From contig CAZYLF010000001.1 of the NCBI GenBank assembly GCA_964648765.1, positions 357,797 to 421,796 of the forward strand: a stretch of DNA of 64,000 nucleotides, read 5' to 3'. Source of the DNA: an uncultured Candidatus Saccharibacteria bacterium. Its GTDB lineage: Bacteria > Patescibacteriota > Minisyncoccia > Phycocordibacterales > JACOZG01. Shown in pieces: positions 31,317-53,760 of the stretch (the first letter of the stretch is position 1; each line of letters opens with the position of its first letter). Made by a program: the position numbers and the translations under genes. Under the pieces are notes generated by a model, which made no database searches, was not told the origin of the DNA, and worked only from the letters and a program-made list of their open reading frames with translations.

Positions 31317-31317
31317 G

Positions 31318-31401
31318 TGCGCCGGGTAGGATTCGAACCTACGTAGCCCAGAGGGCGACAGATTTACAGTCTGTTGCGATTGACCACTCCGCCACCGACG
31401 C
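31318..31401 (-). tRNA. tRNA-Tyr (anticodon GUA), long variable arm
   Basis: Acceptor GCGTCGG/CCGGCGC. Anticodon stem-loop ACAGA-CTGTAAA-TCTGT. 13-nt variable arm. T-arm GTAGG-TTCGAAT-CCTAC. Confidence 0.85.
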
Positions 31402-31468
31402 TTATAACTCGCGATTTTAACTCTAACATTTTTTATAATTTTTGCCACGCTGTGCTATGATAGCCCCC

Positions 31469-32035: not shown

Positions 32036-33040
32036 CTAGCCCAAGGGCTCATAGTTCAATGGTAGAATGACGGTCTCCAAAACCGTTGATCGAGGTTCGA
32101 CTCCTCGTGGGCCCGCTTCGATCCACGTAATTCTCTTGTCGCGTTTGAACCAGGTCATCTGGCGTTTGGCGTATTGATAAATAGCGGTTTGGGATTTCTC
32201 GATCATTTCCTTTTTATCAATCTTGCCTTCAAGAAATTCCGCGACGTAAAAGTATTCTAAACCAAATTCTTTAATTCGTTTGAAGGAGATTTTCTGCTTC
32301 CGTAACTTTTTTACTTCTTCCACTAAACCTTGTTTAAACCATTGCGCCAGGCGCTTATTAATCTTCTTTCGTAAAATTTCATCCGGAACCTTAATGCCGA
32401 TTTGTAAAAAATGATACCGAGGACTCCCCTTAAGGATGCCCCAAGGGGAGTCCTCGGTTCCCATTAACTTCGGAACTTTTCCGAGCGCGGTCGCAATTTC
32501 TATCGCGCGCATAAGGCGTCGGGGATTTTGCGCATCTATATTTTTAGCCCGGACTGGATCGAGAACTTTTAACTTTTCAAATAATTGATTCACACCTAAC
32601 TTTTCTAATTCCTTGCGTAATTTTAAATTTGGTTTAACTTCTGGCAAAATAATCCCATCCACAATTGATTGAATGTAAAATCCCGTGCCACCGCAAATTA
32701 TCGGTAACTTGTCGCGCTTAATTATTTCTTCAATTTTTTTATTTGCCAGCTTTTGAAAGTCGGAAACCGAGAATGTTTTCTTCGGGCTCACCACATCAAT
32801 TAAGTGGTGGGGGATTCCTTTCATCTCTTTTTTACTCAACTTGCCGCTGCCAATATCTAGTCCTTTGTAAACTTGTCGCGAGTCGGCGGAGATTACCTCA
32901 CCATGAAACCGCTTGGCGAGCTTTATCGCCAAATCACTCTTCCCACTCGCCGTGGGTCCCACAATCACTAAAATTTTTTGTTTAGACACTGCTGTTTTCT
33001 GAAACAAGCCCTTCACACTGACTTCTAACTTGCTGGTCAT
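32036..33040 (-). CDS. miaA: tRNA dimethylallyltransferase; C-terminal 25 codons read antisense through tRNA-Trp; start possibly GTG near 32989
   Basis: P-loop ILVIVGPTASGKSDLAIKLAK and the DSRQVYKGLDIGSGK signature. The in-frame tail ...GVEPRSTVLETVILPLNYEPLG is antisense tRNA. Confidence 0.85.
   Translation of the reverse strand: MTSKLEVSVKGLFQKTAVSKQKILVIVGPTASGKSDLAIKLAKRFHGEVISADSRQVYKGLDIGSGKLSKKEMKGIPHHLIDVVSPKKTFSVSDFQKLANKKIEEIIKRDKLPIICGGTGFYIQSIVDGIILPEVKPNLKLRKELEKLGVNQLFEKLKVLDPVRAKNIDAQNPRRLMRAIEIATALGKVPKLMGTEDSPWGILKGSPRYHFLQIGIKVPDEILRKKINKRLAQWFKQGLVEEVKKLRKQKISFKRIKEFGLEYFYVAEFLEGKIDKKEMIEKSQTAIYQYAKRQMTWFKRDKRITWIEAGPRGVEPRSTVLETVILPLNYEPLG
32045..32115 (+). tRNA. tRNA-Trp (anticodon CCA), embedded antisense within the 3' end of miaA
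   Basis: Acceptor GGGCTCA/TGGGCCC, anticodon stem-loop ACGGT-CTCCAAA-ACCGT, T-arm CGAGG-TTCGACT-CCTCG. Confidence 0.85.
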
Positions 33041-39669: not shown

Positions 39670-41796
39670 ATGTTTAAGAAATATTTCGCCGGACTTCTCA
39701 TGTTGGCGCTTTTTGTTGTGCCATTTAATAGCGTGCAAGCGCAGACCATTGAAGATTTAAACGCAATGATCGCGCAGTTGGTTTATCAATTATGTTTAGC
39801 TCAAGGTGGCACAAATTGCGTACCACCTACGCCAACCCCTCCGCCGACATTGCCGGCAGTTAACCCAGTTTGTTTCGGTTATTCACGGCCATTGTTCGTT
39901 GGTTCACAAGGTGAGGATGTTAAAATGCTGCAGCTTTTCTTGCAGCAGAGAGGATATTTCACTGGAGTTGCTAATGGACTCTTTGAGATTTCTACTAAAA
40001 CAGCTTTAACTCAATTTCAACAGAGTGCAGGTATTTTAGCTACTGGTTACTTCGGTCCAGTTACAATTGCCTACCTTAAAACTCTTTGCCAGAGTACAAA
40101 CGTCCCAACTTTAAGTATTCTGACGCCAAATGGCGGTGAGAGTTATATAACTGGTGAGTCAACAATTAATATTGATTATCAATATTCGCCATCATCAATC
40201 GGAAGTCAGCCTATAACTGCTTACCTTTGGAGTCAGAATTCTGGCATCGGAAGGAGCGTCCACTCTACTTTAGGTGCAGGTACGCTTGTTATGCAACTAG
40301 CTAAAGGTGATTTGGTAGAAACTCCAGGGCAATACAAAATTCTTCTATGTACCGATAATGCAATGTCAAGCAGTGGTGATCAACTTTGCGATTACAGTGA
40401 TAATTTCTTTTACCTTACTAATGGTTCAACTAATTCTAATCAACCCCCATCAATCTCTGGCGTGTCTGGTCCAACCGTGTTAAACACTAACCAAAGTGGC
40501 ACTTGGTCTCTCACAGCCAGTGATCCAGAAAATGGCACTCTCTCGTACTCTGTGGATTGGGGTGATAATAAAACTGGTAAGGGAGTAAAAGGTGCCACAT
40601 CTGGCGTGTCTCAAACCGCTACCTTTACTCACTCGTACTCTGCGCCCGGTAATTATACGGTAACTTTGAAGGTTTCCGACAACGCTGGCCAATCTGCTCA
40701 CTCGACTTTGAGTGTTGTGGTGGGTGGGAGTAGTAGTAATGCCGCGCCATCAATAACCTACTATGAGTTACCAGTTGGGGCCTCAGTTGGTGAAACAGTT
40801 AACTTCTACTTAGAAGCATCTGACCCAGATGGCGACAATCTTTCTTGGAGTGGTAGCATACAAGATGTGAATAGTGGTGCGGGGTTTGCCGGTTCTTGCC
40901 CGTCATCACAACCAAATACTAGTTTTAACACCAGTAAAAAGTGGAATACTCCCGGTACCTATACAGTGAATTTTAAGGTGTCTGACTGCAAAGGAGGAAC
41001 AGATTCAAAATCGGTTACGGTAAATGTGGGTGGGATCGTACCTCCAGTTGCGCCATTGATAATGCTTACACCTAATGGCGGTGAGGTTTGGACGACGGGT
41101 TCAACACAAGGGATAAAATGGAACGATCCAAATTATGTTACAGGTACTCAATATGTTGTCTCAGCTAGATACTACACACAAACAGAAGTAGTTTATTTAT
41201 TGGGGCAGGTAACAAATGGACAATCATTCAATTGGACCGTGGGCCAACATCAGTCAGGGACAATTCCAGTTTATGATAAAAATTATTATTACATTGGTGT
41301 TTGTCGGATCCCTCCAGGTTCTACAATTTATGCTGGTTGTGACGATAGTGATAATTATATTTCGATTACTACCAACACTCCACCAACACCCACTCTCACT
41401 CCATCACTTAAACTTACAAAACCATCAAATGGCGTTAATCAGTTGATTGGTTCGCAAAAGAGTATTGAGTGGACGAGTTCAAATGTACCAGCTAGCAACT
41501 TAATGTTCATAAGGTACTACAATCTCAGTGGTGTACCACTTATTACCTCTGTTCCAATAGCTCAGGGTCAAAATGACGGAGTTCAGGTGATTACGGTTCC
41601 AAATTTACCTGTTGGGCAATATTACCTTGAGCTATCAACACAGCCTGTGAGTGGAGTAAATCTGTCAGATAAAAAACTCATAAATATCACTTCTCCAACT
41701 TCCAGTATTGATTCAAATCTCCAATACGCAAGCACGATTTCAGCAATTCAGAATTTGATTGAGGCACTTAGGGCGAGAGTTGGTGCGAGTCAGTAA
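39670..41796 (+). CDS. secreted or cell-surface protein: peptidoglycan-binding domain plus repeated Ig-like (Kre9/KNH-type and PKD-like) modules
   Basis: Signal peptide. PG_binding_1-like region (GEDVKMLQLFLQQRGYFTGVANGLFEISTKTALTQFQQSAG). Repeated LTPNGGE.w.tG....I.W modules and a VSDNAGQSAHSTLSVVV PKD-like strand. Confidence 0.55.
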   Translation: MFKKYFAGLLMLALFVVPFNSVQAQTIEDLNAMIAQLVYQLCLAQGGTNCVPPTPTPPPTLPAVNPVCFGYSRPLFVGSQGEDVKMLQLFLQQRGYFTGVANGLFEISTKTALTQFQQSAGILATGYFGPVTIAYLKTLCQSTNVPTLSILTPNGGESYITGESTINIDYQYSPSSIGSQPITAYLWSQNSGIGRSVHSTLGAGTLVMQLAKGDLVETPGQYKILLCTDNAMSSSGDQLCDYSDNFFYLTNGSTNSNQPPSISGVSGPTVLNTNQSGTWSLTASDPENGTLSYSVDWGDNKTGKGVKGATSGVSQTATFTHSYSAPGNYTVTLKVSDNAGQSAHSTLSVVVGGSSSNAAPSITYYELPVGASVGETVNFYLEASDPDGDNLSWSGSIQDVNSGAGFAGSCPSSQPNTSFNTSKKWNTPGTYTVNFKVSDCKGGTDSKSVTVNVGGIVPPVAPLIMLTPNGGEVWTTGSTQGIKWNDPNYVTGTQYVVSARYYTQTEVVYLLGQVTNGQSFNWTVGQHQSGTIPVYDKNYYYIGVCRIPPGSTIYAGCDDSDNYISITTNTPPTPTLTPSLKLTKPSNGVNQLIGSQKSIEWTSSNVPASNLMFIRYYNLSGVPLITSVPIAQGQNDGVQVITVPNLPVGQYYLELSTQPVSGVNLSDKKLINITSPTSSIDSNLQYASTISAIQNLIEALRARVGASQ

Positions 41797-43149: not shown

Positions 43150-44016
43150 ATGACGACGCTCCGGAGAGAAATAATTGAGCGCTCACAAGAAGCCAAAAAA
43201 CGTCAACGCAAAATTAATATAATTTTACTTTTGGTGATTATTGCGCTCACTGTAGTTTTGTTTGTACAGATTTTTAATCATCCTAAAATTGCATTCAGGG
43301 GAGTTCAAATAATTGACCCATCAACTAAACTCGACAGCAAGGCAATTCTTGCCTTAGTGGGCGAGGAACTTAGAGGTAAGTACGGATATTTTTTAAATAA
43401 AACAAATTACTTTTTTTATCCGGCTGAAAAGTTAAAGTCAATGATTTTAACTGAGTTCCCAAAAATTAAAGATCTAAATTTACGTCGGGACGGCAATAAT
43501 TTAATGGTGGATGTGGTGGCGCGAGAGCCGGAGTTTATGTGGTGTCATGGGGCAGAGGATTTTTGCCAGTATTTAGATAATGAGGGAATTGCCATAAGTT
43601 TGGCGCCTAAATTTTCTGGAGAAACTCTGTTGATCTTTTCACCACATTCATCCAGCACCCCAATTACAAAACTTGGAGATTCACCTTTTAATATAGAAGA
43701 TTTTACCAGATTAACGAGCTTGATTGGTGAACTTAAGGTTGCTCTCCAAAATTCGCCATTTCAAACTTATAGTCTCCAAGAGATTCTGGTTCTTGAAGGG
43801 GGTGATTATAAAATTAAGCTAGATGAGGTGGGGCGGAAGGCTTTCCCACTTTATATTAACTTTAGCCTAAAAAATTCAAACCAAACCACTTTAACTTACT
43901 TAAAATCAGTTCTTAACTCACCAGAATTCAAGGCTTCACTCAATGTAAGTTCAAAGCCACTCAAGACTTTGGATTTAAGATTCAATCAAAAGGTGTTTTA
44001 CGAGTTCTGGGAGTAG
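43150..44016 (+). CDS. bitopic membrane protein with a possible FtsQ-type POTRA domain
   Basis: 288 aa. Basic N-terminus, one TM, then FRGVQIIDPSTKLDSKAILALVGEELRGKYGYFL...LNLRRDGNNLMVDVVAREP, which resembles FtsQ/DivIB POTRA. Weak call. Confidence 0.35.
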   Translation: MTTLRREIIERSQEAKKRQRKINIILLLVIIALTVVLFVQIFNHPKIAFRGVQIIDPSTKLDSKAILALVGEELRGKYGYFLNKTNYFFYPAEKLKSMILTEFPKIKDLNLRRDGNNLMVDVVAREPEFMWCHGAEDFCQYLDNEGIAISLAPKFSGETLLIFSPHSSSTPITKLGDSPFNIEDFTRLTSLIGELKVALQNSPFQTYSLQEILVLEGGDYKIKLDEVGRKAFPLYINFSLKNSNQTTLTYLKSVLNSPEFKASLNVSSKPLKTLDLRFNQKVFYEFWE

Positions 44017-44046
44017 CCAACTGGCAGTTGATTTTATATAATTTAA

Positions 44047-44442
44047 GTGATGAAGCTTTTTACTTTTCCGTTTAGTTATTTAGTTTGGCATTACACTTTA
44101 GCTATTCGTGACTTTGCAATTATTATAGGCAACTTACTTTGGTTCTTATATCACTACTTTTCCATCCCGATACTTTTAAAAACCCTATTCTCACCTTGGC
44201 GTCGACTTTCTGAGGGCTACAGTCACAACATACTTAAACCGGGGGATTTTTTTTCGACACTTATTGTTAATAGCTTAATACGGATTTTTGGCTTTGTGGT
44301 CAGAAGCGTAATGATCTTGGTCGGTATTTTAATGTGGCTTTCAAGTTTGGTGCTTAGTATTTTAGCAATGGTTTTCTGGCTATTCCTCCCTATTATTATT
44401 CCTACACTAATCTTTTTTGGTGGTTATTTGATTCTGACTTAA
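44047..44442 (+). CDS. small polytopic membrane protein
   Basis: 131 aa with four hydrophobic helices. Immediately upstream of the membrane-anchored AAA+ gene. Confidence 0.4.
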   Translation: MMKLFTFPFSYLVWHYTLAIRDFAIIIGNLLWFLYHYFSIPILLKTLFSPWRRLSEGYSHNILKPGDFFSTLIVNSLIRIFGFVVRSVMILVGILMWLSSLVLSILAMVFWLFLPIIIPTLIFFGGYLILT

Positions 44443-44445
44443 AAT

Positions 44446-46899
44446 ATGTACTTCTTCAGAGAACAATTGCGTGATAGCCGGCTGTATCCAAGTTTGGTGC
44501 TTGAGGGTTTTTTTGCTCATCGCTTTCGTCATCTCATAATTAAGACTCTTAATATTATTTTATTAATAATTGTCGGCTCAATAATTTTCTTTTCCCTTGT
44601 TCCTTCTTTTGCGAGTTTAAATGAGTATGTGCCTTTGGTTAAGGAGTTAATGCCACGACTGGTAGGATTGCTTAGTGTGTTGGTTGCTTTTTGGTTATTG
44701 GTATTTATTTTTGAAGTATTTTTTCGGCATTATTATTTATCAGGCACAGTAAATGAGAAAAAAGATCTGGTCGACTTTACTCTTGGACGATTACTTTACA
44801 GTACTAAACATCACGATCCAGTAATGATTTTTGCAGACAGTCGTTTGGGTAAGCGGATACTTGCCCGAGCGGGTTTTGATATTAGTTTTTTGCCCGACTT
44901 AGCAAAAGTTCGAGAGAGTAACAAAACAAGTATCACCGGCACCGTTCTTCGGGTGGGGCAGTATCTCACATTTGATCAATGGCTCGAGACGGTAATTACG
45001 GATAAAATCTTTTCCCAATTTTTACTCGAGCATGGCGTAAGAGTTGAGGATTTGAAGGGTGCAAGTAGGTGGGTGGAGGATGAGGCATCGCTTAAACGAG
45101 AGAGTGAGCGGTGGTGGAGTTTGGAGAGGTTAAGTGAGGTGCCGGGCCTCGCCAAAGATTGGTCATATGGCGGTTCATATTTACTTAGTCATTATGCTCG
45201 AGATTTAAATCGAGAGGTCGTTAGTGCAGTGAGGCAGGCTGTGAGCACTGTGCGCGATGAGGAGGTTCATACACTTGAAACGGTGCTTGGGCGGACAAGT
45301 GAGGCCAACGCTATTTTGATCGGGCAGACAAATGAAGACAGGTTAAGTGTATTGCTTGATTTTGCTTCCAAGATTAAGGCTGGTCGAGTGGTGCCCGCAC
45401 TTGAACACAAACATCTTTTTCTTTTTGATCCTGAAGCGATTCTTTCCACTAAGGCGGGTAAGGAGCTTGAGAGTGAACTTATAAAAATTTTGAACGAGGC
45501 GGTGAGGGCGGGCAATGTGATTTTGGCTATTGATAATTTTGCGAGTTTTGTGGCCGGAGCAAAAAAAGAAAACGTAAACATTGTTACGCTCTTTGATCCA
45601 TATTTATCATCAAGTAAATTACAGGTTATCGCTTTGTGTACGCCAGCTGAGTTCCATAAAAATATCGAGACTGATCAAGCGCTTTTAAATAGATTTGAAA
45701 AGGTTGAAGTTAACTCACCCGATCGTACTCATTTAAATCAAATTGCCATGCTTACCGCCTCACGACTCGAGCACCGTAGTTACGTTTTCTTTACTTACCC
45801 TGGATTAATGGAGCTTTCGGCGGCGAGTGAGCAATATTTTGCTAATGAACCGGCACTTGATAAGACCATCGATCTCTTAGTTGAGATTGTGTCGTGGGCG
45901 GGGGCAAACAATATTCAAGGCATTACTCGTGATGTGGCACTTAAATTTATTAGCCAAAAAACTAAAATTCCTCTGGGTGAAGCTACAAGTGATGAACGCG
46001 AGAGATTACTAAATGTTGAAAATATTTTGCATGAGCGCGTGGTAGGACAAAATCTAGCTATTGATGCCCTTGGTAAAGCTTTGCGCAGAGCGCGCACTGG
46101 CTTGCGTGATCCTAAGCGACCGATTGGTTCTTTCATTTTCCTCGGACCTACCGGTGTTGGAAAAACTGAAACAGCCAAAGCCCTCGGAAACTTTTTCTTT
46201 AAAGACGATTCCTCAATTCTTCGTTTAGACATGTCGGAGTATCAGGGTGCTGATGCGCTGGCTAAACTTACCGGTTCGTTTAATGATAAGAAACCAGGAA
46301 TTTTAGCCACAATGCTTCGCGAGCGACCTTACGGCGTGCTTTTGCTAGATGAGTTTGAGAAAACAACCTCAGAAGTTCTTAACCTGTTCTTGCAAATTTT
46401 AGATGAAGGATTCTTTTCTGATATGAACGGCGAAAGAGTAAATGCGCGCAATCTATTAATTGTGGCCACCTCAAACGCTGGTTCGGAAATGATTTGGCAA
46501 TTGGTTAAAACTGGTTCGCCGCTTAATAATGCTGAAATAGAGCTGGTAAATCACCTTGTAGAAAAGCAAATCTTTAAACCTGAACTTTTAAATCGCTTTG
46601 ACGGTATCATTATTTTCCATCCGCTTGTAGATGGCGATCTGGTTAAGGTGGCTAAACTCCAACTTGAGCGTTTAGTAAAACGGCTTAAGGATCAAGGCGT
46701 TACTCTCAAAATAGATGATAAGCTTATTGCTAAAGTAGCTGCCTCGGGCGCCAATCAAAATTTCGGTGCAAGGCCTATGGCGCGTTTTATTCAAGATCAT
46801 TTGGAGGAAGCAATTTCAAAAAAACTATTGACTAAAGAAATTGCCAGTGGTTCCACCATAGTTTTTGATGACCAATTAGGGGTAAGTAGTGTAAAATGA
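44446..46899 (+). CDS. membrane-anchored Clp/Hsp100-family AAA+ ATPase with a degenerate D1 and an intact D2 module
   Basis: 817 aa with two N-terminal TM helices. D1-like region lacks Walker A/B (ILIGQTNEDRL, VILAIDNFASFVAG). D2 is intact: [28 protein letters not shown], and sensor RPMARFIQ. No ClpP IGF loop. Confidence 0.7.
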   Translation: MYFFREQLRDSRLYPSLVLEGFFAHRFRHLIIKTLNIILLIIVGSIIFFSLVPSFASLNEYVPLVKELMPRLVGLLSVLVAFWLLVFIFEVFFRHYYLSGTVNEKKDLVDFTLGRLLYSTKHHDPVMIFADSRLGKRILARAGFDISFLPDLAKVRESNKTSITGTVLRVGQYLTFDQWLETVITDKIFSQFLLEHGVRVEDLKGASRWVEDEASLKRESERWWSLERLSEVPGLAKDWSYGGSYLLSHYARDLNREVVSAVRQAVSTVRDEEVHTLETVLGRTSEANAILIGQTNEDRLSVLLDFASKIKAGRVVPALEHKHLFLFDPEAILSTKAGKELESELIKILNEAVRAGNVILAIDNFASFVAGAKKENVNIVTLFDPYLSSSKLQVIALCTPAEFHKNIETDQALLNRFEKVEVNSPDRTHLNQIAMLTASRLEHRSYVFFTYPGLMELSAASEQYFANEPALDKTIDLLVEIVSWAGANNIQGITRDVALKFISQKTKIPLGEATSDERERLLNVENILHERVVGQNLAIDALGKALRRARTGLRDPKRPIGSFIFLGPTGVGKTETAKALGNFFFKDDSSILRLDMSEYQGADALAKLTGSFNDKKPGILATMLRERPYGVLLLDEFEKTTSEVLNLFLQILDEGFFSDMNGERVNARNLLIVATSNAGSEMIWQLVKTGSPLNNAEIELVNHLVEKQIFKPELLNRFDGIIIFHPLVDGDLVKVAKLQLERLVKRLKDQGVTLKIDDKLIAKVAASGANQNFGARPMARFIQDHLEEAISKKLLTKEIASGSTIVFDDQLGVSSVK

Positions 46900-46905
46900 C
46901 GATTC

Positions 46906-49185
46906 ATGTCTTTTAATTTCCGAAAAACTTTTAATTATACTGTCCACGTTTTATTAGCTGGCGCTTTCGGAGCCGCCTTTTTGTTTTTGGTAGGTAATGG
47001 TTTTGAGTCGGCGTATCATTTTGTGACCAACACCCCAAACGAGGTTGAAAAGTTCACCGAGCTTGCCGCCGCGGTAACCCAACCACCAAAAGTAATCGCC
47101 AAAAAAATTGAAGAAGAAGTCGCGCCAGTTTCAACTGAAAAATCAATCAGAGTTGATCTCAAAACAATGACTCTAGGACTTTACGTAGGTGAGAAAGTTA
47201 TAGATACAATGCCTGTGCTCTCAAAAGGTCGTCCGGGTTCAGCTTGGGAAACGCCAACCGGTAGTTATGAGGTTGAAACAATGGAGTTAAATCACTTTTC
47301 TTCAATCGGGCGGGTGTGGATGCCATATAGCATGCAATTTTTTGGGAATTTTTTCATCCATGGTTGGCCGTACTATGAAGGAGGCGAGCCGGTAAGTGAG
47401 GGTTATTCTGGTGGTTGTATTCGGCTATCAACTTTAGACGCTAAAAGAGTTTTTGAGTTTAGTAAGAAAAGTACACCAGTAATTGTAATTAACGGAGAAG
47501 AAGTATTAAGTAGTCAGACCTCAAAACTTGCCTACTTAACAAAGCCAAACAGTGCTTTGCCACCTTTAAGTGCCTCAGCTTATCTTGTGGCCGATATTGA
47601 AACAGGAAAGGTAATTCTTGAGAAAGAAAAAAATACCGAGCTCCCTATTGCTTCAATCACAAAACTCATGACCGCGCTCGTGTCGCTTGAAACAATAAAC
47701 CAAGAGCGGCAGGTGACGGTTTCTGCTAACGCTTTGGCAACTTATGGTGAGGCTGGCGGTCTAAGTTTGGGAGAAAAAATCAGAATGCAGGATTTGATCT
47801 TCCCACTTTTGCTCGAGTCAAGCAATGATGCATCAGAAGTAATTGCTGAAGCAGCCGGGCGACACAACTTTATTAATCACATGAATGAGCGCGCCAAAGC
47901 AATTGGTTTGTCTAAAACAAAATTTGCTGATCCAAGTGGAATCTCACCAGGGAACGTTTCCACCCCTACAGACATTTTAAAGCTCACATCGTATTTATTT
48001 AAAGACAAGAGTTATCTTTTTCAAATTTTAAGAAAGAAGACGGCCACTGCACCAGGACATTCGTGGGTAAACTTTTTAACTTTTGTGAATGATGAGCGTT
48101 ATTTGGGAGGTAAAAGTGGGCACACCACTGCCGCTCGCGATACTTTGGTGACCGTGTTTTCATTACCGCTCGCAGAATTTGAGAGCCGGCCAATTGCCAT
48201 AATTATACTTGGTAGTGAGAATCGTGAAGCCGACACTGCTAAGATCCTTAACTATTTAACCGGAAATATTTATTATGGTGAGGCTTTACCCAAACCACTT
48301 AGTACTCGTGTGGGGGATGCAGAAGGGGAGGAATCAATTACTTTAAGTTTTGTGGGTGACATTATGCTTGATCGAGGCGTGGCAAGTGTTTTAACCAAAA
48401 AGCATGAAGGGGATTTTAAGAAGATTTTTGAGGGCGTACCTATACTCCGCAGCGCTGATATCTTGTTTGGTAATTTAGAAGGCCCACTCTCCGATCAGGG
48501 TAAAGAGATTGGCAATCTTTACTCATTTAGAATGTCTCCAAATGCACTCCCCGCACTAACTCAGGCGGGGTTTGATGTTTTATCTGTGGCAAATAACCAC
48601 GCCGGTGATTGGGGCAAAGAGGCCATGGTGGACACTTTAAAAAAGTTAGAGGATTACCAAATTACTCCGGTGGGTGGTGGTGATAATATTGCTGAAGCTA
48701 GCGCACTTAAAATTATTGAAAGAGATGGAATTAAGGTCGGTTATTTGGCGGCAAGTGATGTGGGTCCAAATTGGCTAAAAGCCACGGAGGTTAGTGCTGG
48801 CATAATGATTGCTGATGAAGTCTTTTTTGAGTCTATCGCTAAAGCTAAAGGTAAGGTGGATGTGATCGTTGCGTCGTTTCATTTTGGTGATGAATATCAA
48901 ACAAAATCAAACACTCGCCAACAAACTTTAGCTAGGCGGGCCGTTGATGCTGGTGCAAATTTAGTAATTGGTCATCATCCGCACGTGAGGCAAGAAATTG
49001 AAAAGTATCGGAATGGTTTAATTGCCTACAGCTTAGGGAATTTTGTGTTTGATCAATATTTTTCAGAAGAAACAATGACGGGCATGGCGCTTGAAGTGGC
49101 AGTAAACAAGCAAGGTAAAATTTTGGATTTTAAGGAACATGTGGTAAAAATTGATAGTGATTATCATCCAAGTATCTCAAGCTAG
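46906..49185 (+). CDS. three-domain cell-wall enzyme: L,D-transpeptidase (YkuD) + D-Ala-D-Ala carboxypeptidase (S11) + CapA/PgsA-like metallophosphatase
   Basis: TM anchor. YkuD catalytic HGW...SGGCIRLS. S11 SxxK (ASITKLMT) and SNDAS. CapA-like SFVGDIMLDRG, GNLEGP, VANNHAGDWG, HHPHV. Confidence 0.65.
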   Translation: MSFNFRKTFNYTVHVLLAGAFGAAFLFLVGNGFESAYHFVTNTPNEVEKFTELAAAVTQPPKVIAKKIEEEVAPVSTEKSIRVDLKTMTLGLYVGEKVIDTMPVLSKGRPGSAWETPTGSYEVETMELNHFSSIGRVWMPYSMQFFGNFFIHGWPYYEGGEPVSEGYSGGCIRLSTLDAKRVFEFSKKSTPVIVINGEEVLSSQTSKLAYLTKPNSALPPLSASAYLVADIETGKVILEKEKNTELPIASITKLMTALVSLETINQERQVTVSANALATYGEAGGLSLGEKIRMQDLIFPLLLESSNDASEVIAEAAGRHNFINHMNERAKAIGLSKTKFADPSGISPGNVSTPTDILKLTSYLFKDKSYLFQILRKKTATAPGHSWVNFLTFVNDERYLGGKSGHTTAARDTLVTVFSLPLAEFESRPIAIIILGSENREADTAKILNYLTGNIYYGEALPKPLSTRVGDAEGEESITLSFVGDIMLDRGVASVLTKKHEGDFKKIFEGVPILRSADILFGNLEGPLSDQGKEIGNLYSFRMSPNALPALTQAGFDVLSVANNHAGDWGKEAMVDTLKKLEDYQITPVGGGDNIAEASALKIIERDGIKVGYLAASDVGPNWLKATEVSAGIMIADEVFFESIAKAKGKVDVIVASFHFGDEYQTKSNTRQQTLARRAVDAGANLVIGHHPHVRQEIEKYRNGLIAYSLGNFVFDQYFSEETMTGMALEVAVNKQGKILDFKEHVVKIDSDYHPSISS

Positions 49186-49191
49186 ATTATA

Positions 49192-50388
49192 ATGAAGAAG
49201 TTTTTTTATATTGCATTGGTGGGGATGACGGCGTTTATTTTTTGGCTTTGGCCAGATGGACAAGGTAACTACCCTGTTCCTTTTATAACTTACTTGGGCC
49301 AAGTGTTTGAGGAAACGATTACGCCTGAAGATCTTAAGGATGCCTACAACGAAAATAAGCTTAAAATCCTTTTGGTCCCTGGCCACGATAATGAGTATTC
49401 AGGTACTGAGTTTCAGGGTTTGAAGGAGGCTGATGTAAACTTGGAATTGACCGAGTGGCTTTATAATTATCTAAACAATGATCCTCGGTTTGAGGTGATG
49501 GTGACACGGGATTTTGAAACAGGTAATTACTTGCCGGAATTTTTGAATTATTTTACTGATAACCGAGAAGACATTATTTCATTTAGATTAAAAACTAGAG
49601 AAAGATTTTTGAACCTTGTGAAGTCAGGGGATATTAAAGAACATATTGGGGTAACCCATAATTTTGCCAAAAATGAAGTCTCGATTAGGCTTTATGGAAT
49701 TAATAAATGGGCGAATGAAAATGATATTGATTTAGCTTTTCATATTCATGTTAATGACTATCCGGGGAGAGGTTACAATCGCGCTGGCAAACACACAGGT
49801 TTTTCAATTTATATTCCTGAATCACAATACCCTAATGCTCGGGCGAGTAAGCAGTTGGCTGAAAGTTTAGCGCTTGAAATAAAAAATTTACAATCACCTA
49901 GCACACTTGCGATTGAAAGTGACGTGGTAATTGAGGATCAAGAATTAATTGCACTTGGCTCACAAGGCTCGCGTGATGGGGCGGCAGTTTTAGTTGAGTA
50001 TGGGTATATTTATGAGCCACAATTTATTAACCCACAAATCAGGACGAAAATGTTGCCTGAACTTGCCTGGCAAACTTATCTCGGAATGAAGAATTATTTT
50101 GCGGATCGAGGTGATTTGCCAGCTACCGTTCTTTTGCCCCACGTTTTCCGTGCACCACTATATGAAGGTTTGAAGGGGAGTGCTGATGCTTTAGCTTTAC
50201 AGAGATTTTTGCAACTCAAAGGATTTTACCCGCCAACGGGTCAAACGTTAGATGATTGCCCTGTAAACGGAAACTTTGGACCGTGTGTTAAAAGGGCAGT
50301 GACTAATTTCCAAACAGCCAATGGTTTACCTGCAACTGGGTCAGTGGGTGAACTCACCTTGACTAAAATAAATAACACGGCAATCTAG
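49192..50388 (+). CDS. N-acetylmuramoyl-L-alanine amidase (Amidase_3 type) with a C-terminal peptidoglycan-binding domain
   Basis: KILLVPGHDNEYSGTEFQGLKEADVNLELT is the Amidase_3 zinc site. C-terminal LALQRFLQLKGFYPPTGQTLDDCPVNGNFGPCVKRAVTNFQTANGLPATG is PG_binding_1-like. Confidence 0.7.
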   Translation: MKKFFYIALVGMTAFIFWLWPDGQGNYPVPFITYLGQVFEETITPEDLKDAYNENKLKILLVPGHDNEYSGTEFQGLKEADVNLELTEWLYNYLNNDPRFEVMVTRDFETGNYLPEFLNYFTDNREDIISFRLKTRERFLNLVKSGDIKEHIGVTHNFAKNEVSIRLYGINKWANENDIDLAFHIHVNDYPGRGYNRAGKHTGFSIYIPESQYPNARASKQLAESLALEIKNLQSPSTLAIESDVVIEDQELIALGSQGSRDGAAVLVEYGYIYEPQFINPQIRTKMLPELAWQTYLGMKNYFADRGDLPATVLLPHVFRAPLYEGLKGSADALALQRFLQLKGFYPPTGQTLDDCPVNGNFGPCVKRAVTNFQTANGLPATGSVGELTLTKINNTAI

Positions 50389-50392
50389 GGAG

Positions 50393-51379
50393 ATGAGTGG
50401 AAACTTTTGGGAAAAATTACCTAAGCCAATAATGGCGCTGGCACCGATGGCGAATGTCACCGACGTGGCCTTTCGACGTATCATCGCGAAGTATGGTAAG
50501 CCTCAAATAATGTGGACGGAGTTTGTCGCGGCTGATGGTTTGATGAGTAGGGGACGGGAAATTTTACTACACGATTTAAAATATTCTGAAAGTGAGCGGC
50601 CAATTGTGGCGCAACTTTTTGGTTCAAATTTAGAAAAGATGGAAGGTGCTGCCAAACTGGTGGCTGAGCTCGGCTTCGACGGCTTAGATATTAATATGGG
50701 TTGTCCGGATAAAACAATTGAGAAGCAATTGGCTGGCGCGGCCATGATTAAGAATCCGCAATTGGCGAGAGAGATTATTAGAGCAGCCAAAAGGGGAGTG
50801 AAAGCCGCGGGGCGCGAGATTCCGATCTCGGTGAAAACCAGATTGGGTTATAATAAAGATGAATTGGAAACTTGGTTGCCGGAACTTTTAGCTGAAGGTT
50901 TGGCCGCTCTCACCATCCACGCGCGGACACGTAAAGAGATGAGTAAAGTGCCGGCACGCTGGGAGCGAGTAAAGCGCGCGGTGGAAATTAGAGATGAATT
51001 AAAATCTAAAACTTTAATATTGGGTAATGGCGATGTAATAGATCTCACTGATGCAAGAAAAAAAGTAGCAGAAACCGGCTGCGACGGCGTGATGCTTGGC
51101 AGAGCGATATTTGGTAATCCATGGTTATTTTCAGCAGAAAATAATTCCGAGCGTAGTCGAGGAACTGAAGAAAAACTAAAAGTCATGCTTGAGCACACTA
51201 AACTCTTTGAAGAATTATTAGGTGGCGTAAAAAGCTTCGCGATTATGAAGAAGCATTACAAGGCGTATGTGAATGGCTTCCCCGGCGCTACCGAACTCCG
51301 CGCCAAATTGATGGAAACTAACAACTATAACGAAGTCACAGCCCTAGTTGACAGATTTCTGAAAGGTGATATAATCTGA
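50393..51379 (+). CDS. dus: tRNA-dihydrouridine synthase
   Basis: 328 aa TIM-barrel flavoenzyme: ALAPMANVTDVAFRRI, LDINMGCPDK (catalytic Cys), HARTRKEMS. Confidence 0.85.
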   Translation: MSGNFWEKLPKPIMALAPMANVTDVAFRRIIAKYGKPQIMWTEFVAADGLMSRGREILLHDLKYSESERPIVAQLFGSNLEKMEGAAKLVAELGFDGLDINMGCPDKTIEKQLAGAAMIKNPQLAREIIRAAKRGVKAAGREIPISVKTRLGYNKDELETWLPELLAEGLAALTIHARTRKEMSKVPARWERVKRAVEIRDELKSKTLILGNGDVIDLTDARKKVAETGCDGVMLGRAIFGNPWLFSAENNSERSRGTEEKLKVMLEHTKLFEELLGGVKSFAIMKKHYKAYVNGFPGATELRAKLMETNNYNEVTALVDRFLKGDII

Positions 51380-51424: not shown

Positions 51425-52393
51425 ATGTCTAACATCCGACGGTATGGACCATTTTCGGTGATTGCGTTACCAAGATTAAGTATGGATTGGGACGCATTTC
51501 TAAAGTCTGCGCCCAATCGCTCAATTGCACTCGATGGTGTGGTTAAGGGAGGGCCAAACTTTAACGAGCAGACCGCTCACATCAACTTCGATCACCACGA
51601 CAACGTGGTGAGGGAAGCGACTATGAGCACGGCAATGCAGGTTTTCTATGCCATCAAGGGTGGACTTATGCACTCGATGATTGGCTCTGATGGAAAAGTG
51701 TCAGCCATGATTCACATCAACGACACTGACCAAGACACTACTCTCGCTGTCTGGTATCTCCTCAACCACAAAAAGTTTGAGGGTACCCAGAGCATCCCAA
51801 CGATGAGTCGTCTTTTGGCGCTTACCGATCGTTTGGATATCACGGGTGGAGCATTCCCGATGAATCTTGAGGATTCACTGATCCGTAAACACTCTTGGGT
51901 CTTCAGGCCTTACACTGACTTGCGTAAGTCTGGTGAGTTGGCTCGAGCCTCAGCGGAGATGTTGCTCGACAATCTCGAGGCAATGCTCCATCGACTTGAT
52001 CAATTTGTAATGAATCAGGCCGAAGAAGTGGAGCTCGATATCCGCCATGAGGTGTACTATGACTCACCGGTCTACATGATTTACAACGAGATCGGTGGAA
52101 ACGAGGCGCGTTACCATCTCTTAAGTAAGGGAATGGATGCGTACATCTGCGAGGTGGCTACGCGACCAGATGGACGCAAGGTTTACACGGTTGGTCGTCG
52201 CTCGCGCTACATTCGTTTCCCCGTGCCAAAGCTTTACGCCGCGTTCAACGCTGTTGAGGGTTTTGCGCCAGGAGAAGGTTGGAATGGATCTGACATCATC
52301 GGCGGTGCTCCGCGGGCGAAGGGTAGCGGATTGTCTTGGGAGCAGATCCGCGACATTACGAACGAAGTTCTGAAAGGAGAAGGTGTACTATGA
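51425..52393 (+). CDS. hypothetical soluble protein (GC3-rich), first gene of an inserted two-gene cassette
   Basis: 322 aa with an Asp/His-rich N-terminal half (ALDGVVKGGPN, HINFDHHDNV, MIHINDTDQD), suggestive of a metal-binding phosphoesterase-like site but not assignable. SD GAAAGGAAAATGAATG. Confidence 0.45.
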   Translation: MSNIRRYGPFSVIALPRLSMDWDAFLKSAPNRSIALDGVVKGGPNFNEQTAHINFDHHDNVVREATMSTAMQVFYAIKGGLMHSMIGSDGKVSAMIHINDTDQDTTLAVWYLLNHKKFEGTQSIPTMSRLLALTDRLDITGGAFPMNLEDSLIRKHSWVFRPYTDLRKSGELARASAEMLLDNLEAMLHRLDQFVMNQAEEVELDIRHEVYYDSPVYMIYNEIGGNEARYHLLSKGMDAYICEVATRPDGRKVYTVGRRSRYIRFPVPKLYAAFNAVEGFAPGEGWNGSDIIGGAPRAKGSGLSWEQIRDITNEVLKGEGVL

Positions 52394-52650: not shown

Positions 52651-52668
52651 ACCCCACAGACGTTGGCC

Positions 52669-52704
52669 GGGTCGTCGCAACGTGCGACGACCCGCTTTTT
52701 TTTA
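52669..52704 (+). terminator. strong rho-independent terminator (gggtcgtcgca ACG tgcgacgaccc plus T9) ending the cassette
   Basis: 11-bp GC stem followed by nine T. The -10 TATATAAT of dnaX follows directly. Confidence 0.8.
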
Positions 52705-52716
52705 TATAATCAAGTA

Positions 52717-53760
52717 ATGGGAGAAACTATTGCTTTATATCGTAAATACCGTCCGCGGAAGTTTAGCGAGGTAATCGGTCAAGATCATATCGTGGAGGCG
52801 TTAAGTCAGGCCACTAAAGGTGCTGGCTTAGCCCATGCTTATTTATTTATCGGTTCGCGCGGTACGGGTAAAACAAGTCTCGCCCGGATTTTATCTCGTG
52901 AGCTCGGCACCAATCCTGAAGATCTTTATGAAATTGATGGCGCTTCAAATCGTGGCATCGACGAGATCCGCGAACTCCGTGACGCGGCGCAAACTTTACC
53001 ATTTACTTCAGAAAAAAAAGTTTACATTATTGATGAGGTGCACATGCTTACCAAGGAGGCCTTCAACGCGCTTCTTAAAACTCTTGAGGAACCACCATCA
53101 CATGTGATTTTTATTCTTGCTACTACTGAGGGTCATAAAGTTCCGGAGACAATTATTTCGCGTTGCCAAACTTTTAATTTTAAAAAGCCAAGTATCAATG
53201 ATTTAGTAAAAGCAATTTTACGGATTGCTAAAGCGGAGAGTTGGAAGGTGGAGGCCGATGCGGCAGAGCTTTTAGCTATGCTTGGTGACGGCTCGTATCG
53301 TGACGCGGTGGGTATGCTCCAAAAAGTTACCACCGCACTCGTAGATAAAAAGCTAACAGCTGAAGAGGTAGCGCGACTCACTGGCGCACCAGGACTCCAC
53401 TTAGCTCGAGGTTTGGTGAGCGCTTTGGCCGACAATAGTCTGGAGTCAGCGCTTAAGATAATTAGTGAAGTAGCAGATAATAATTATGATGCTAAAGTAT
53501 TTTTAAAAATGGTTTTACGCTTAGTGCGTTTAATAATGATTATTAACTTAGCACCAAAGCTCGCCCCAAACTTTTTGAAGGGATTAAGTGATGATGAGGT
53601 TAAATTTTTAAAGGAGACGGCACTCAAACCCGCTTCTGCTGCCTTCTCTAAAACTCTGCGGGAACTTTTGGTAGCTTATGATGATCTGGGTCGCTCATAT
53701 TTACCCACCGCACCACTCGAGCTTGCAATCATCAAACTTTTAGGCGAGTCTAAGGCATAA
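52717..53760 (+). CDS. dnaX: DNA polymerase III subunit gamma/tau (short form)
   Basis: Start at the internal ATG 52717 (MGETIALYRKYRPRKFSEVIGQDHI). P-loop GSRGTGKTS. DEVHMLT box. Sensor SRCQTF. Only about 347 aa. Confidence 0.85.
   Translation: MGETIALYRKYRPRKFSEVIGQDHIVEALSQATKGAGLAHAYLFIGSRGTGKTSLARILSRELGTNPEDLYEIDGASNRGIDEIRELRDAAQTLPFTSEKKVYIIDEVHMLTKEAFNALLKTLEEPPSHVIFILATTEGHKVPETIISRCQTFNFKKPSINDLVKAILRIAKAESWKVEADAAELLAMLGDGSYRDAVGMLQKVTTALVDKKLTAEEVARLTGAPGLHLARGLVSALADNSLESALKIISEVADNNYDAKVFLKMVLRLVRLIMIINLAPKLAPNFLKGLSDDEVKFLKETALKPASAAFSKTLRELLVAYDDLGRSYLPTAPLELAIIKLLGESKA

What the first reader, a model, noticed from the sequence alone, without database searches (positions are those of the whole stretch)
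43150..50388. Peptidoglycan-remodelling gene cluster containing a membrane-anchored Clp/Hsp100 ATPase with a dead D1 ring
Five co-oriented genes run in series. They are a POTRA/FtsQ-like bitopic protein, a four-helix membrane protein, a two-TM-anchored ClpB-like ATPase, a tri-domain L,D-transpeptidase + S11 D,D-carboxypeptidase + CapA-like fusion, and an amidase with a PG-binding domain. Gaps are only 3-30 nt. In the ATPase, D1 has lost Walker A and B (GQTNEDRL, AIDNFA), D2 is intact, there is no ClpP docking loop, and the N-terminal domain is replaced by two TM helices. A membrane-tethered single-active-ring unfoldase embedded among cell-wall enzymes suggests an envelope-associated remodelling or quality-control machine not described for Hsp100 proteins.
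Basis: partly seen in the sequence, partly recalled or inferred. Interest (0 to 1): 0.7.

Follow-up and report, generated by a model that had tools for sequence, protein, structure and literature searches.

The report
Membrane-anchored Hsp100 ATPase with small partner
A group of tiny uncultured bacteria carries an unusual ClpB-like protein-remodelling motor that is anchored in the membrane, has one dead ATPase ring, lacks the usual substrate-gripping tyrosines, and is always encoded next to a small unknown membrane protein; the neighbouring cell-wall enzyme genes are a feature of one lineage, not part of the conserved unit.

The parts
43150..44016 (+). g1: bitopic FtsQ/DivIB-like protein (N-terminal TM at about residues 21-43, then a POTRA-type domain). 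It is linked to g2-g3 in about half of the related genomes.
   Evidence: ORF. The window copy has no Pfam hit, but POTRA_1 matches 18 of 41 orthologues (best E 5.9e-7) and FtsQ_DivIB_C matches 2 of 41 weakly. It is present in 41 of 80 loci, almost always between serS and g2. In L009 it has moved to just downstream of g3.
44047..44442 (+). g2: small polytopic membrane protein (130-131 aa; the true start is probably the ATG at 44050) and the obligate genomic partner of the ATPase. Conserved motifs are YLxWHY, FFSIxxLLxTLFxPWxRLxE, VNxxMRxVGxxxR and WLxLP.
   Evidence: ORF. A homologue lies immediately upstream of g3, on the same strand and within 125 nt, in 76 of 80 loci; the 4 misses have 303 nt or less of upstream sequence. 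The most distant g2 homologues (30-36% identity) are also followed by a g3-type gene. No Pfam family matches across 42 members, and all database relatives are 'hypothetical'. Hydrophobicity profile.
44014..44042 (+). Promoter-like site TAGCCA-17-TATAAT in the g1-g2 gap; a possible internal promoter for g2-g3.
   Evidence: 10 of 12 matches. This is weak evidence: the number of promoter-like sites in the region is not above the shuffled expectation.
44446..46899 (+). g3: membrane-anchored divergent Clp/Hsp100 ATPase, 817 aa.
   Evidence: AF2 model: pLDDT 85.7, pTM 0.73.
44542..44721 (+). g3 TM hairpin: TM1 at about residues 33-54, an extracytoplasmic loop of variable length (4-55 aa across the family), and TM2 at about residues 70-92. 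Topology is N-in/C-in.
   Evidence: Hydrophobicity scan. AF2 helices H25-54 and H56-98. Family mean K+R is 5.4 before TM1 against 1.0 in the loop.
44743..45153 (+). g3 retained, sequence-divergent Clp_N-fold domain (residues 100-236), ending in the family-specific ERWWS motif.
45247..45906 (+). g3 D1: pseudo-ATPase ring (residues ~268-487). The Walker A remnant GQTNEDRL is at 45322-45345 and the Walker B remnant AIDNFA is at 45526-45543. The pore loop reads KAGK in place of KYRG. No M-domain is inserted.
   Evidence: Alignment to ClpB D1, E 1e-18. Family-wide motif table. ClpA aligns in one stretch, and A1 shows a gap of about 115 columns relative to the window's canonical Clp.
45928..46896 (+). 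g3 D2: active AAA_2 ring plus D2-small. Walker A GPTGVGKT is at 46144-46167 and Walker B LLLDEFEK is at 46339-46362. The shortened pore loop GSFNDKKPG is at 46273-46299 (4-residue deletion, no GYVG). There is no IGF/IGL ClpP loop.
   Evidence: Pfam AAA_2 E 1.3e-36 and ClpB_D2-small E 3.8e-20. Invariant catalytic residues. The pore-loop deletion is present in all 25 aligned members, with F, M, P, Q, V or G in place of the Tyr.
46906..49185 (+). g4: membrane-anchored tri-domain fusion. L,D-transpeptidase (YkuD, 47140-47487), S11 D,D-carboxypeptidase (47560-48153) and PGA_cap/CapA-like (48340-49056). It is a clade-specific insert, not part of the conserved module.
   Evidence: Pfam E-values 1.9e-14, 5e-35 and 8.8e-72. 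The catalytic H...SGGC, SITK, SSN and KSG motifs can be read directly in the translation. The domains are fused, split, duplicated or absent in related loci. PG-linked loci lie in one clade.
49192..50388 (+). g5: signal-anchored N-acetylmuramoyl-L-alanine amidase (Amidase_3) with a C-terminal PG_binding_1 domain (50185-50367). It is a clade-specific insert.
   Evidence: Pfam E 3.3e-14 and 1.6e-11. A homologue occurs in only 8 of 80 loci.

Best explanation
The real conserved unit is the gene pair g2-g3, not the five-gene cluster.

g3 is a new subfamily of two-ring Clp/Hsp100 ATPases found in Patescibacteria (Paceibacteria/Parcubacteria lineages). A two-helix membrane hairpin has been added in front of a retained but divergent Clp_N domain. 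D1 is kept only as a non-catalytic ring, presumably for assembly. D2 is the sole ATP-hydrolysing ring. The M-domain (the DnaK-coupling element of ClpB) and the ClpP-docking loop are both absent.

Topology places the N-terminus, the Clp_N domain and both rings in the cytoplasm, held against the membrane. The small polytopic membrane protein g2 is its dedicated partner, most likely assembling with the TM hairpins in the bilayer.

Inferred mechanism: a hexamer sitting on the inner face of the membrane uses D2 ATP hydrolysis, with Clp_N as the client- or adaptor-binding site, to remodel, extract or disassemble membrane-embedded or membrane-proximal proteins. It would not hand them to ClpP. The canonical pore-loop tyrosines are missing from both rings, and the D2 loop is shortened in every member. 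This suggests the action is short-range or non-processive, more Torsin-like than ClpB-like.

Linkage with an FtsQ-like gene in about half of the genomes makes a divisome or envelope-assembly client the best guess.

Shown: the architecture, the motif losses, the topology statistics, and the g2-g3 pairing and its distribution. Inferred: hexamer formation, physical g2-g3 interaction, the identity of clients, and the mode of action.
For: Architecture and motifs.

Clp_N retained.

Topology.

g2 adjacency:
- g2 is adjacent in 76 of 76 informative loci.
- In about 20-25 loci the pair stands alone between opposite-strand, unrelated genes.
- It also sits next to SAM synthetase, S1, IF-2 and SurA-like genes elsewhere.
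- Distant g2 homologues are still followed by g3.

Family size and exclusivity:
- 333 species-representative genomes encode a relative.
- About 300 clusters at 50% identity carry the N-terminal module, always at the N-terminus of proteins of about 800 aa.

A canonical Clp_N/M-domain/IGF-bearing Hsp100 coexists in the same window at 20113-22815, and in L081. g3 is therefore an extra, specialised paralogue rather than the cell's general disaggregase.

g1 is FtsQ-like and linked in 41 of 80 loci, and stays adjacent even when the gene order is rearranged in L009.
Against: - There is no experimental or transcript data, and the function is inferred from anatomy and gene context only.
- The loss of pore-loop tyrosines in both rings argues against any classical threading or extraction activity.
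- A Phe occupies the shortened D2 loop in only 14 of 25 members.
- g2-g3 physical interaction is untested, since no multimer prediction was available.
- The FtsQ-like link is absent in half of the loci.
- Gene order in these small, densely packed genomes can be conserved for reasons other than function. serS and dus are as well conserved as neighbours as g1 is.
Confidence: 0.45

Rival explanations
1. One reading: the ATPase is the cytoplasmic engine of a peptidoglycan-remodelling or quality-control machine. It would be functionally coupled to the L,D-transpeptidase/D,D-carboxypeptidase/CapA-like fusion and the amidase. One way this could work is FtsEX-like, with ATP-driven conformational changes transmitted across the membrane to control extracytoplasmic wall enzymes.
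For: - PG-enzyme genes lie directly downstream of g3, with gaps of 3-10 nt, in the window and 17 related loci. They have been kept there through fusion, fission, duplication and partial loss.
- The FtsQ-like g1 lies upstream.
- In L081 the divergent upstream genes are MurT/GatD.
- There is no terminator-like site in any gap between serS and dus.
Against: - PG genes are absent next to g3 in about 75% of informative loci.
- All PG-linked loci that could be placed (15 of 17) fall in one clade of the ATPase tree, which means one insertion event.
- Elsewhere g2-g3 is flanked by unrelated genes.
- The only extracytoplasmic part of g3 is a loop of 4-55 aa that is poorly conserved. g2 has almost no extracytoplasmic mass. 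There is therefore no obvious surface for binding wall enzymes, unlike the large FtsX ectodomain.
Confidence: 0.15
2. A protein translocation or insertion motor. The twelve g3 TM helices plus g2 would form a membrane channel under the AAA+ ring, so that unfolded substrates are pushed across or into the membrane, as HSP101 feeds the EXP2 pore in the Plasmodium PTEX translocon.
For: - An Hsp100 ring is fused to TM helices and has an obligate polytopic membrane partner.
- There is no ClpP loop, so substrates are not degraded.
- HSP101 is among the structural relatives of both the rings and the N domain.
Against: - Processive translocation normally needs the pore-loop aromatic residues, which are missing in D1 and not conserved in the shortened D2 loop.
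- No conserved secreted-cargo gene lies next to the pair.
Confidence: 0.1
3. A Torsin-like, non-threading ATP-dependent switch. ATP binding and hydrolysis in D2 would control the assembly state or conformation of a membrane complex with g2, for example regulating a membrane or lipid process, rather than doing mechanical work on a polypeptide.
For: - The family lacks canonical pore-loop tyrosines in both rings, is membrane-associated, and has a dedicated membrane partner.
- Torsins are Clp/Hsp100-related, lack aromatic pore loops, are membrane-associated and depend on membrane cofactors (PMC5425593).
Against: - Unlike Torsins, g3 keeps its own Arg finger (R717) and sensor 2 (R776), and a full two-ring body with Clp_N.
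- g2 has no AAA-like domain that could complement an active site.
- A conserved 'EGFFSD' aromatic pair at the start of the pre-sensor-1 hairpin might still contact substrate.
Confidence: 0.2
4. Artefact: the TM segments result from a frameshift or mis-assembly joining two genes, or g3 is a decaying pseudogene copy of the canonical Clp.
For: None found. D1 degeneration could superficially suggest decay.
Against: - The same full-length architecture recurs in 72 independent assemblies, with the TM hairpin, Clp_N-like region and D1 all under conservation, including invariant non-catalytic residues.
- D2 catalytic residues are invariant.
- An identical protein is found on 3 contigs, one of 553 kb.
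Confidence: 0.01

Closest known systems
ClpA / ClpC (class I Clp/Hsp100 unfoldases that partner with ClpP)
   Same: The domain order is Clp_N - D1 - D2 - D2-small. Like ClpA, there is no long M-domain; ClpA aligns in a single stretch covering residues 241-805. D2 is the main motor.
   Different: - A TM hairpin is added at the N-terminus.
- D1 Walker A and B and the pore-loop Tyr are lost.
- The D2 GYVG loop is deleted.
- The IGL/IGF ClpP-docking loop is deleted.
- The NCBIfam ClpA score is 329 bits against a cut-off of 993.
ClpB / Hsp104 disaggregases
   Same: This is the best-scoring relative of D2 (E about 1e-97 to E. coli ClpB). There is no ClpP loop, and the Clp_N fold is closest to the ClpB/Hsp104 N domains.
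   Different: - There is no M-domain, so no DnaK/Hsp70 coupling element.
- D1 is dead.
- There are no pore-loop tyrosines.
- The protein is membrane-anchored.
- The NCBIfam ClpB score is 392 bits against a cut-off of 1232.
- A canonical Clp_N/M-domain Hsp100 is encoded separately in the same window at 20113-22815.
Torsin ATPases with LAP1/LULL1 cofactors (eukaryotic ER and nuclear envelope)
   Same: Both are Clp/Hsp100-D2-related AAA+ proteins that are membrane-associated through an N-terminal hydrophobic segment, lack aromatic pore loops, and work with a dedicated membrane protein (PMC5425593).
   Different: - Torsins are single-ring, lumenal and lack the Arg finger, which the cofactor supplies.
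- g3 is two-ring, cytoplasmic and keeps its Arg finger and sensor 2.
- g2 is a 130-aa polytopic protein with no AAA-like fold.
- This is an analogy, not shared ancestry of the arrangement.
FtsH and Msp1/ATAD1 (membrane-anchored AAA+ machines that extract membrane proteins)
   Same: An N-terminal TM anchor (two TMs in FtsH) holds a cytoplasmic AAA+ ring against the membrane. This is the conceptual model for acting on membrane clients.
   Different: They belong to a different AAA+ clade (the classical clade), have a single ring, and have conserved aromatic pore loops. FtsH has a protease domain. No homology exists beyond the AAA+ core, and this comparison rests on established knowledge rather than a test made here.
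Plasmodium HSP101 in the PTEX translocon
   Same: It is an Hsp100 that works at a membrane, docked on a pore rather than on ClpP. It appears among the sequence relatives and the N-domain fold relatives.
   Different: HSP101 is not itself membrane-integrated, has two active rings and pore-loop tyrosines, and docks on EXP2/PTEX150.
FtsQ / DivIB (for g1)
   Same: A bitopic protein with an FtsQ-type POTRA domain (18 of 41 orthologues hit POTRA_1), and a conserved C-terminal 'DLRF.NK.FY' motif.
   Different: The sequence is very divergent and the window copy is below Pfam detection. It sits next to serS and g2-g3 rather than in a dcw/ftsA-ftsZ cluster. I could not test whether it is the genome's only FtsQ.

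Membership tests
Clp/Hsp100 class I (two-ring) AAA+ superfamily | C-terminal AAA_2 (D2) module with ClpB_D2-small domain and intact Walker A, Walker B, sensor 1, Arg finger and sensor 2 | tested here: met
   Pfam AAA_2 E 1.3e-36 and ClpB_D2-small E 3.8e-20. G567-T574, D635/E636, T675-N677, R717 and R776 are invariant in 34 family members.
Clp/Hsp100 class I (two-ring) AAA+ superfamily | D1 AAA+ module homologous to ClpA/B/C D1 | tested here: met
   Residues 268-483 align to ClpB 181-399 at E 1e-18. AF2 gives an alpha/beta fold with pLDDT mostly 85-94.
Clp/Hsp100 class I (two-ring) AAA+ superfamily | Catalytically competent D1 (Walker A GxxxxGK[ST], Walker B hhhhDE) | tested here: not met
   The window copy reads GQTNEDRL and AIDNFA. 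None of 25 aligned members has K followed by S or T, and none has DE in Walker B.
Clp/Hsp100 class I (two-ring) AAA+ superfamily | Clp_N double-repeat N-terminal domain | tested here: met
Clp/Hsp100 class I (two-ring) AAA+ superfamily | Aromatic pore-loop residues (D1 KYR, D2 GYVG) | tested here: not met
   D1 reads KAGK with no Tyr in any member. D2 has a 4-residue deletion in every member, and the position holds F, M, P, Q, V or G.
ClpB / Hsp104 | Coiled-coil M-domain inserted in the D1 small subdomain | tested here: not met
   There is a gap of about 115 columns relative to the window's canonical Clp in A1. phmmer splits the ClpB match around the M-domain, while ClpA aligns in one piece. 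NCBIfam ClpB scores 392 bits against a cut-off of 1232.
ClpA / ClpC / ClpE (ClpP partners) | IGF/IGL ClpP-docking loop in D2 | tested here: not met
   There is an 8-residue gap in all family members where the window's canonical Clp has '[10 protein letters not shown]' (columns 913-920). NCBIfam ClpA scores 329 bits against a cut-off of 993.
ClpV / TssH (type VI secretion) | Equivalog-level similarity and T6SS gene context | tested here: not met
   NCBIfam TssH scores 306 bits against a cut-off of 885. No T6SS genes are present in the window or in related loci.
FtsQ / DivIB (g1) | Bitopic topology plus an FtsQ-type POTRA domain and an FtsQ_DivIB_C domain | tested here: inconclusive
   A TM segment is present in the sequence. 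POTRA_1 matches 18 of 41 orthologues but not the window copy. FtsQ_DivIB_C matches only 2 of 41, weakly.
FtsEX-type transmembrane regulators of wall hydrolases (functional analogy only) | Large extracytoplasmic domain that binds a hydrolase or its activator | tested here: not met
   The g3 TM1-TM2 loop is 4-55 aa and poorly conserved. g2 has no sizeable extracytoplasmic segment.
Known anti-phage defence systems | Match to a PADLOC system protein beyond generic AAA similarity | tested here: not met
   g1 and g2 have no hits. g3 hits only through its D2 AAA core (DolB, PDC-M37B). The pair sits in conserved housekeeping synteny.

The most novel reading that the evidence does not exclude
g2-g3 is a previously unrecognised class of membrane-integrated Hsp100 machine. 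It would be a hexamer with a pseudo-ATPase D1 ring and a tyrosine-less, shortened D2 pore, built together with a new obligate small membrane subunit (g2). It would work by a non-threading or short-stroke mechanism on membrane or divisome components, and would be a lineage-defining envelope or division factor of Paceibacteria. In bacterial terms it would be a counterpart of the Torsin-cofactor idea.
Probability: 0.3. Interest if true: 0.75.

Novelty: new variant of a known kind. Interest (0 to 1): 0.55.

Why it matters
- Hsp100/Clp proteins are textbook soluble, tyrosine-driven threading machines. A conserved bacterial subfamily that is membrane-integrated, runs on one ring, lacks the gripping tyrosines and always comes with a dedicated small membrane protein would widen the known range of this family.
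- It would give a tractable bacterial system for asking how an Hsp100 body can work without canonical pore loops. That question is still open for Torsins.
- The family is widespread in Paceibacteria: at least 333 species-level genomes. These organisms have minimal genomes and poorly understood envelope and division biology, so a conserved, unexplained ATP-driven membrane module linked to an FtsQ-like gene is a concrete lead.
- The result also gives g2, an unannotated 130-aa protein family, a defined genomic partner.

Tried and rejected
1. PG cluster as the conserved unit. I rejected this on neighbourhood statistics and tree mapping.
3. Frameshift or assembly artefact. I rejected this on family-wide conservation.
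4. Defence system. PADLOC gives only generic AAA hits, and the pair sits in housekeeping synteny.
5. Pfam and NCBIfam annotation of g2. Nothing matched even at E 0.1 across 42 members.
6. A shared functional theme among non-PG neighbours. There is none: CAP, DNA alkylation repair, PAP2, HD, SAM synthetase, S1, IF-2, HMGL, SurA-like and S41.
7. Sequence-level proof of Clp_N. hhalign gives only 24% probability, so fold evidence was needed.
8. Literature. Three full-text searches found no description of a membrane-anchored bacterial Hsp100 or of this family.
9. Operon signals. The promoter scan is not above chance overall, so the g1-g2 gap site is only a hint.
10. Not possible with the tools. I could not run a multimer prediction of g2 with g3, take a whole-genome inventory (FtsH, FtsEX, a second FtsQ) of the source organism, or obtain any expression data.
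Full report
**1. The observation**

The window carries five + strand ORFs at 43150-44016 (g1, 288 aa), 44047-44442 (g2, 131 aa), 44446-46899 (g3, 817 aa), 46906-49185 (g4, 759 aa) and 49192-50388 (g5, 398 aa). The gaps between them are 30, 3, 6 and 6 nt.

Pfam confirms the following:
- g3: AAA_2 (E 1.3e-36) and ClpB_D2-small (3.8e-20).
- g4: YkuD (1.9e-14), Peptidase_S11 (5e-35) and PGA_cap (8.8e-72).
- g5: Amidase_3 (3.3e-14) and PG_binding_1 (1.6e-11).
- g1 and g2: no Pfam or NCBIfam match.

The five genes are not an isolated block. They lie in a 20-kb run of + strand genes. Seryl-tRNA synthetase ends 10 nt before g1, and a dihydrouridine synthase starts 4 nt after g5. No terminator-like site lies in any gap between serS and dus; three low-quality matches fall inside the g1 and g3 coding sequences. 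The only promoter-like site in a gap is TAGCCA-17-TATAAT at 44014-44042, just before g2. The regional count of such sites is not above chance.

**2. The ATPase**

Residue-level alignment to E. coli ClpB shows these changes in D1:
- Walker A GEPGVGKT is replaced by GQTNEDRL.
- Walker B FIDELH is replaced by AIDNFA.
- The pore loop KYRG is replaced by KAGK.

D2 keeps GPTGVGKT and LLLDEFEK.

NCBIfam scores fall far below every equivalog cut-off: ClpB 392 against 1232, ClpA 329 against 993, TssH 306 against 885.

ClpA aligns in one piece, whereas ClpB aligns in two pieces around its M-domain. An alignment with the window's own canonical Hsp100 at 20113-22815 shows two gaps in g3. That canonical protein has Clp_N, AAA, AAA_lid_9, AAA_2 and D2-small. 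One gap, of about 115 columns, is at the M-domain. The other, of 8 residues, is exactly where the canonical protein has '[10 protein letters not shown]', the ClpP-docking loop.

It removes the GYVG pore loop: canonical [13 protein letters not shown] becomes GS----FNDKKPG.

**3. A family, not a one-off**

A database search returned about 38 full-length relatives at 33-46% identity. The few named sources call them Patescibacteria (Vogel-, Yonath-, Lloydbacteria), and they are annotated only generically.

In 25 aligned members:
- None has K followed by S or T in D1 Walker A. Some retain GxxGxGK followed by M or L.
- None has DE in D1 Walker B. They read DD, DN, ED, GD, QD, PD, PN or DH.
- None has a D1 pore-loop Tyr.
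- All have the D2 pore-loop deletion. The remaining position holds F in 14 members, M in 6, and P, Q, V or G in the rest.

D2 Walker A and B, sensor 1 (TSN), the Arg finger (R717) and sensor 2 (R776) are invariant.

Two N-terminal hydrophobic helices are found in most members (both detected in 19 of 25 by a simple hydrophobicity scan).

Searching residues 1-260 against 1.84 billion representative proteins found 300 hits. The match is always at the N-terminus, and proteins that are complete are about 780-860 aa. The N-terminal module therefore exists only in this architecture.

A genome scan using the N-terminal half found relatives in 333 species-representative genomes, essentially all Patescibacteria of the Paceibacteria/Parcubacteria type.

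This rules out a frameshift or assembly artefact.

**4.

AlphaFold2 on a 34-sequence family alignment gave a confident model, with mean pLDDT 85.7 and pTM 0.73. In order, it shows:
- a long helical hairpin (H25-54 and H56-98);
- an all-helical domain at residues 111-221;
- D1 and D2.

So the Clp_N domain is retained in a sequence-divergent form. The TM hairpin was added in front of it and did not replace it.

Charge statistics over 72 family members give 5.4 K+R before TM1, 1.0 in the TM1-TM2 loop and 2.4 after TM2. By the positive-inside rule this is an N-in/C-in hairpin, with Clp_N and both rings in the cytoplasm. The extracytoplasmic loop is only 4-55 aa long and is poorly conserved.

**5. 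What is actually conserved around it**

I called ORFs in the 80 best related loci and searched them with the window's proteins, iterating profiles for the small genes.

*g2.* A g2 homologue lies immediately upstream of g3, on the same strand and within 125 nt, in 76 loci. The four loci without it have 303 nt or less of upstream sequence, so the result is 76 of 76 informative loci. Starting instead from the most distant g2 homologues (30-36% identity) again leads to an 810-857-aa Clp_N-less AAA_2/D2-small gene. That gene overlaps the g2 stop codon, in two further contexts.

*Other neighbours.* g1, serS, dus and dnaX each occur in 34-41 loci. This defines a backbone of dprA(-) | serS-g1-g2-g3-...-dus-...-dnaX.

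*Stand-alone pairs.* In about 20-25 other loci g2-g3 stands alone between opposite-strand genes that are functionally unrelated: CAP-domain protein, DNA alkylation repair enzyme, PAP2 and HD. Elsewhere the same-strand neighbours are SAM synthetase, ribosomal protein S1, IF-2, HMGL-like, SurA-like and S41 peptidase.

*PG-enzyme genes.* These follow g3 in 17 loci, in shifting forms:
- the tri-domain fusion;
- LDT+S11 duplicated;
- LDT+S11 with a separate PGA_cap;
- PGA_cap with an amidase;
- amidase alone.

On a neighbour-joining tree of 72 g3 proteins, the 15 PG-linked loci long enough to include fall, together with the window, in one contiguous clade of 18 leaves. L001 and L074 carry truncated genes and were left off the tree. 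The only non-PG members of that clade are L002, whose downstream flank is truncated, and L009, where g1 occupies the slot.

This pattern is best explained by one ancestral insertion of wall-enzyme genes between g3 and dus, followed by local reshuffling. The window also carries other lineage-specific envelope inserts. One is g0 (PG_binding_1 + PKD), found in 1 of 80 loci. Another is the 322-aa ORF after dus, found in 0 of 80 loci.

**6. g1 and g2**

Across 41 orthologues, g1 hits the FtsQ-type POTRA_1 model in 18 (best E 5.9e-7) and FtsQ_DivIB_C weakly in 2. The window copy itself is below detection. g1 stays next to the pair even where the order is rearranged, as in L009: serS-g2-g3-g1-dus.

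g2 has no Pfam match in any of 42 members, and all database relatives are 'hypothetical'. It has conserved aromatic- and basic-rich motifs. Its C-terminal half is strongly hydrophobic (about residues 70-131), and it has a weaker hydrophobic segment at about residues 22-48.

**7. Mechanism**

*Shown:*
- a membrane-integrated, cytoplasm-facing Hsp100 body with one catalytic ring;
- a retained Clp_N domain;
- no M-domain, no ClpP loop and no canonical pore tyrosines;
- an obligate genomic pairing with a small polytopic membrane protein;
- coexistence with a canonical Hsp100 in the same genome.

*Inferred:* g3 forms a hexamer on the inner face of the membrane, and g2 packs against its TM hairpins. 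D1 acts as an assembly scaffold, as non-hydrolysing rings do in other two-ring AAA+ proteins. D2 hydrolysis drives remodelling, extraction or disassembly of membrane-proximal clients that are recognised through Clp_N.

The missing pore-loop tyrosines argue for a short-range or non-processive action. A conserved EGFFSD aromatic pair at the start of the pre-sensor-1 hairpin might partly compensate, but I did not test this.

The FtsQ-like linkage makes a divisome or envelope-assembly client the best guess.

I put about 0.85 on the anatomical and genomic statements and about 0.3 on the functional reading, which gives roughly 0.45 overall.

**8. Rivals**

It is weakened by the clade restriction and by the lack of any sizeable extracytoplasmic surface on g3 or g2.
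- *A PTEX-like translocation motor (0.1).* The missing pore aromatics count against it.
- *A Torsin-like ATP switch (0.2).* It fits the pore-loop loss, the membrane association and the dedicated cofactor (PMC5425593). However, g3 keeps its own Arg finger, and g2 has no AAA-like fold.
- *An artefact or pseudogene (0.01).* This is excluded.

**9. Comparison and novelty**

g3 is a member of the Clp/Hsp100 superfamily by its D1 and D2 homology and its Clp_N fold. It fails the defining features of each named subfamily:
- ClpB/Hsp104: no M-domain.
- ClpA/C/E: no ClpP loop.
- ClpV: below the score cut-off, and no T6SS context.

It also lacks features common to all of them: an active D1 and the pore tyrosines.

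Three full-text literature searches found no description of a membrane-anchored bacterial Hsp100 or of this family. I rate it a new variant of a known kind.

It is interesting to AAA+ and CPR specialists as a conserved, unexplained module. The specific 'peptidoglycan-remodelling machine' claim is not supported beyond one lineage.

Interest: 0.55.

Noticed in passing
window 23375-29596 (+) and 29598-31448 (-): A 2073-aa bacterial alpha-2-macroglobulin (bMG10, A2M, MG2, A2M_BRD domains) is convergent with, and 2 nt away from, a class-A penicillin-binding protein (Transgly + Transpeptidase). This is the known A2M-PBP1c pairing, seen here in a Patescibacteria genome.
   Followed up: partly
window 20113-22815 (+): A canonical Hsp100 with Clp_N, D1, M-domain, D2 and a 'KIGF' ClpP-docking loop. 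It is the housekeeping paralogue of g3 in the same genome. In L081 a canonical ClpB also lies 1.3 kb downstream of the g2-g3 pair.
   Followed up: partly
window 51348-51375, 51425-52393, 52668-52694: A perfect TTGACA-16-TATAAT promoter-like site (with TG) lies inside the 3' end of dus, 50 nt before a 322-aa ORF. That ORF has no Pfam hit and no homologue in any of the 80 related loci. A strong terminator-like hairpin (12-bp stem, T-run) follows it and overlaps the mechanical TTG start of dnaX, so dnaX probably starts at a downstream ATG near 52717.
   Followed up: partly
window 39670-41796 (+): A 708-aa secreted or surface protein with PG_binding_1 plus PKD/Ig-like repeats is inserted between dprA(-) and serS. 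It is present in only 1 of 80 related loci, so it is another lineage-specific envelope insert flanking the conserved backbone.
   Followed up: partly
L009:12451-13332 (+): In this genome the FtsQ-like gene sits just downstream of the ATPase (serS-g2-g3-g1-dus) instead of upstream of g2. It stays linked to the pair despite the rearrangement.
   Followed up: partly
window 46408-46425 (g3 residues 655-660): The family conserves 'EGFFSD' where canonical D2 rings have 'DGRLTD', at the start of the pre-sensor-1 beta-hairpin. This aromatic pair might face the pore and partly replace the missing GYVG tyrosine.
   Followed up: no
L081:3968-5952 (-): In one distant genome the genes divergent from g2-g3 are MurT and GatD (peptidoglycan amidation). 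This is a second, independent wall-related neighbour, but a single case.
   Followed up: no
window 31317-31401 (-) and 32045-32116 (+): tRNA-Tyr and tRNA-Trp overlap the 5' ends of the mechanical ORFs 29598-31448 (-) and 32036-33040 (-). Those ORF starts are therefore over-extended.
   Followed up: no
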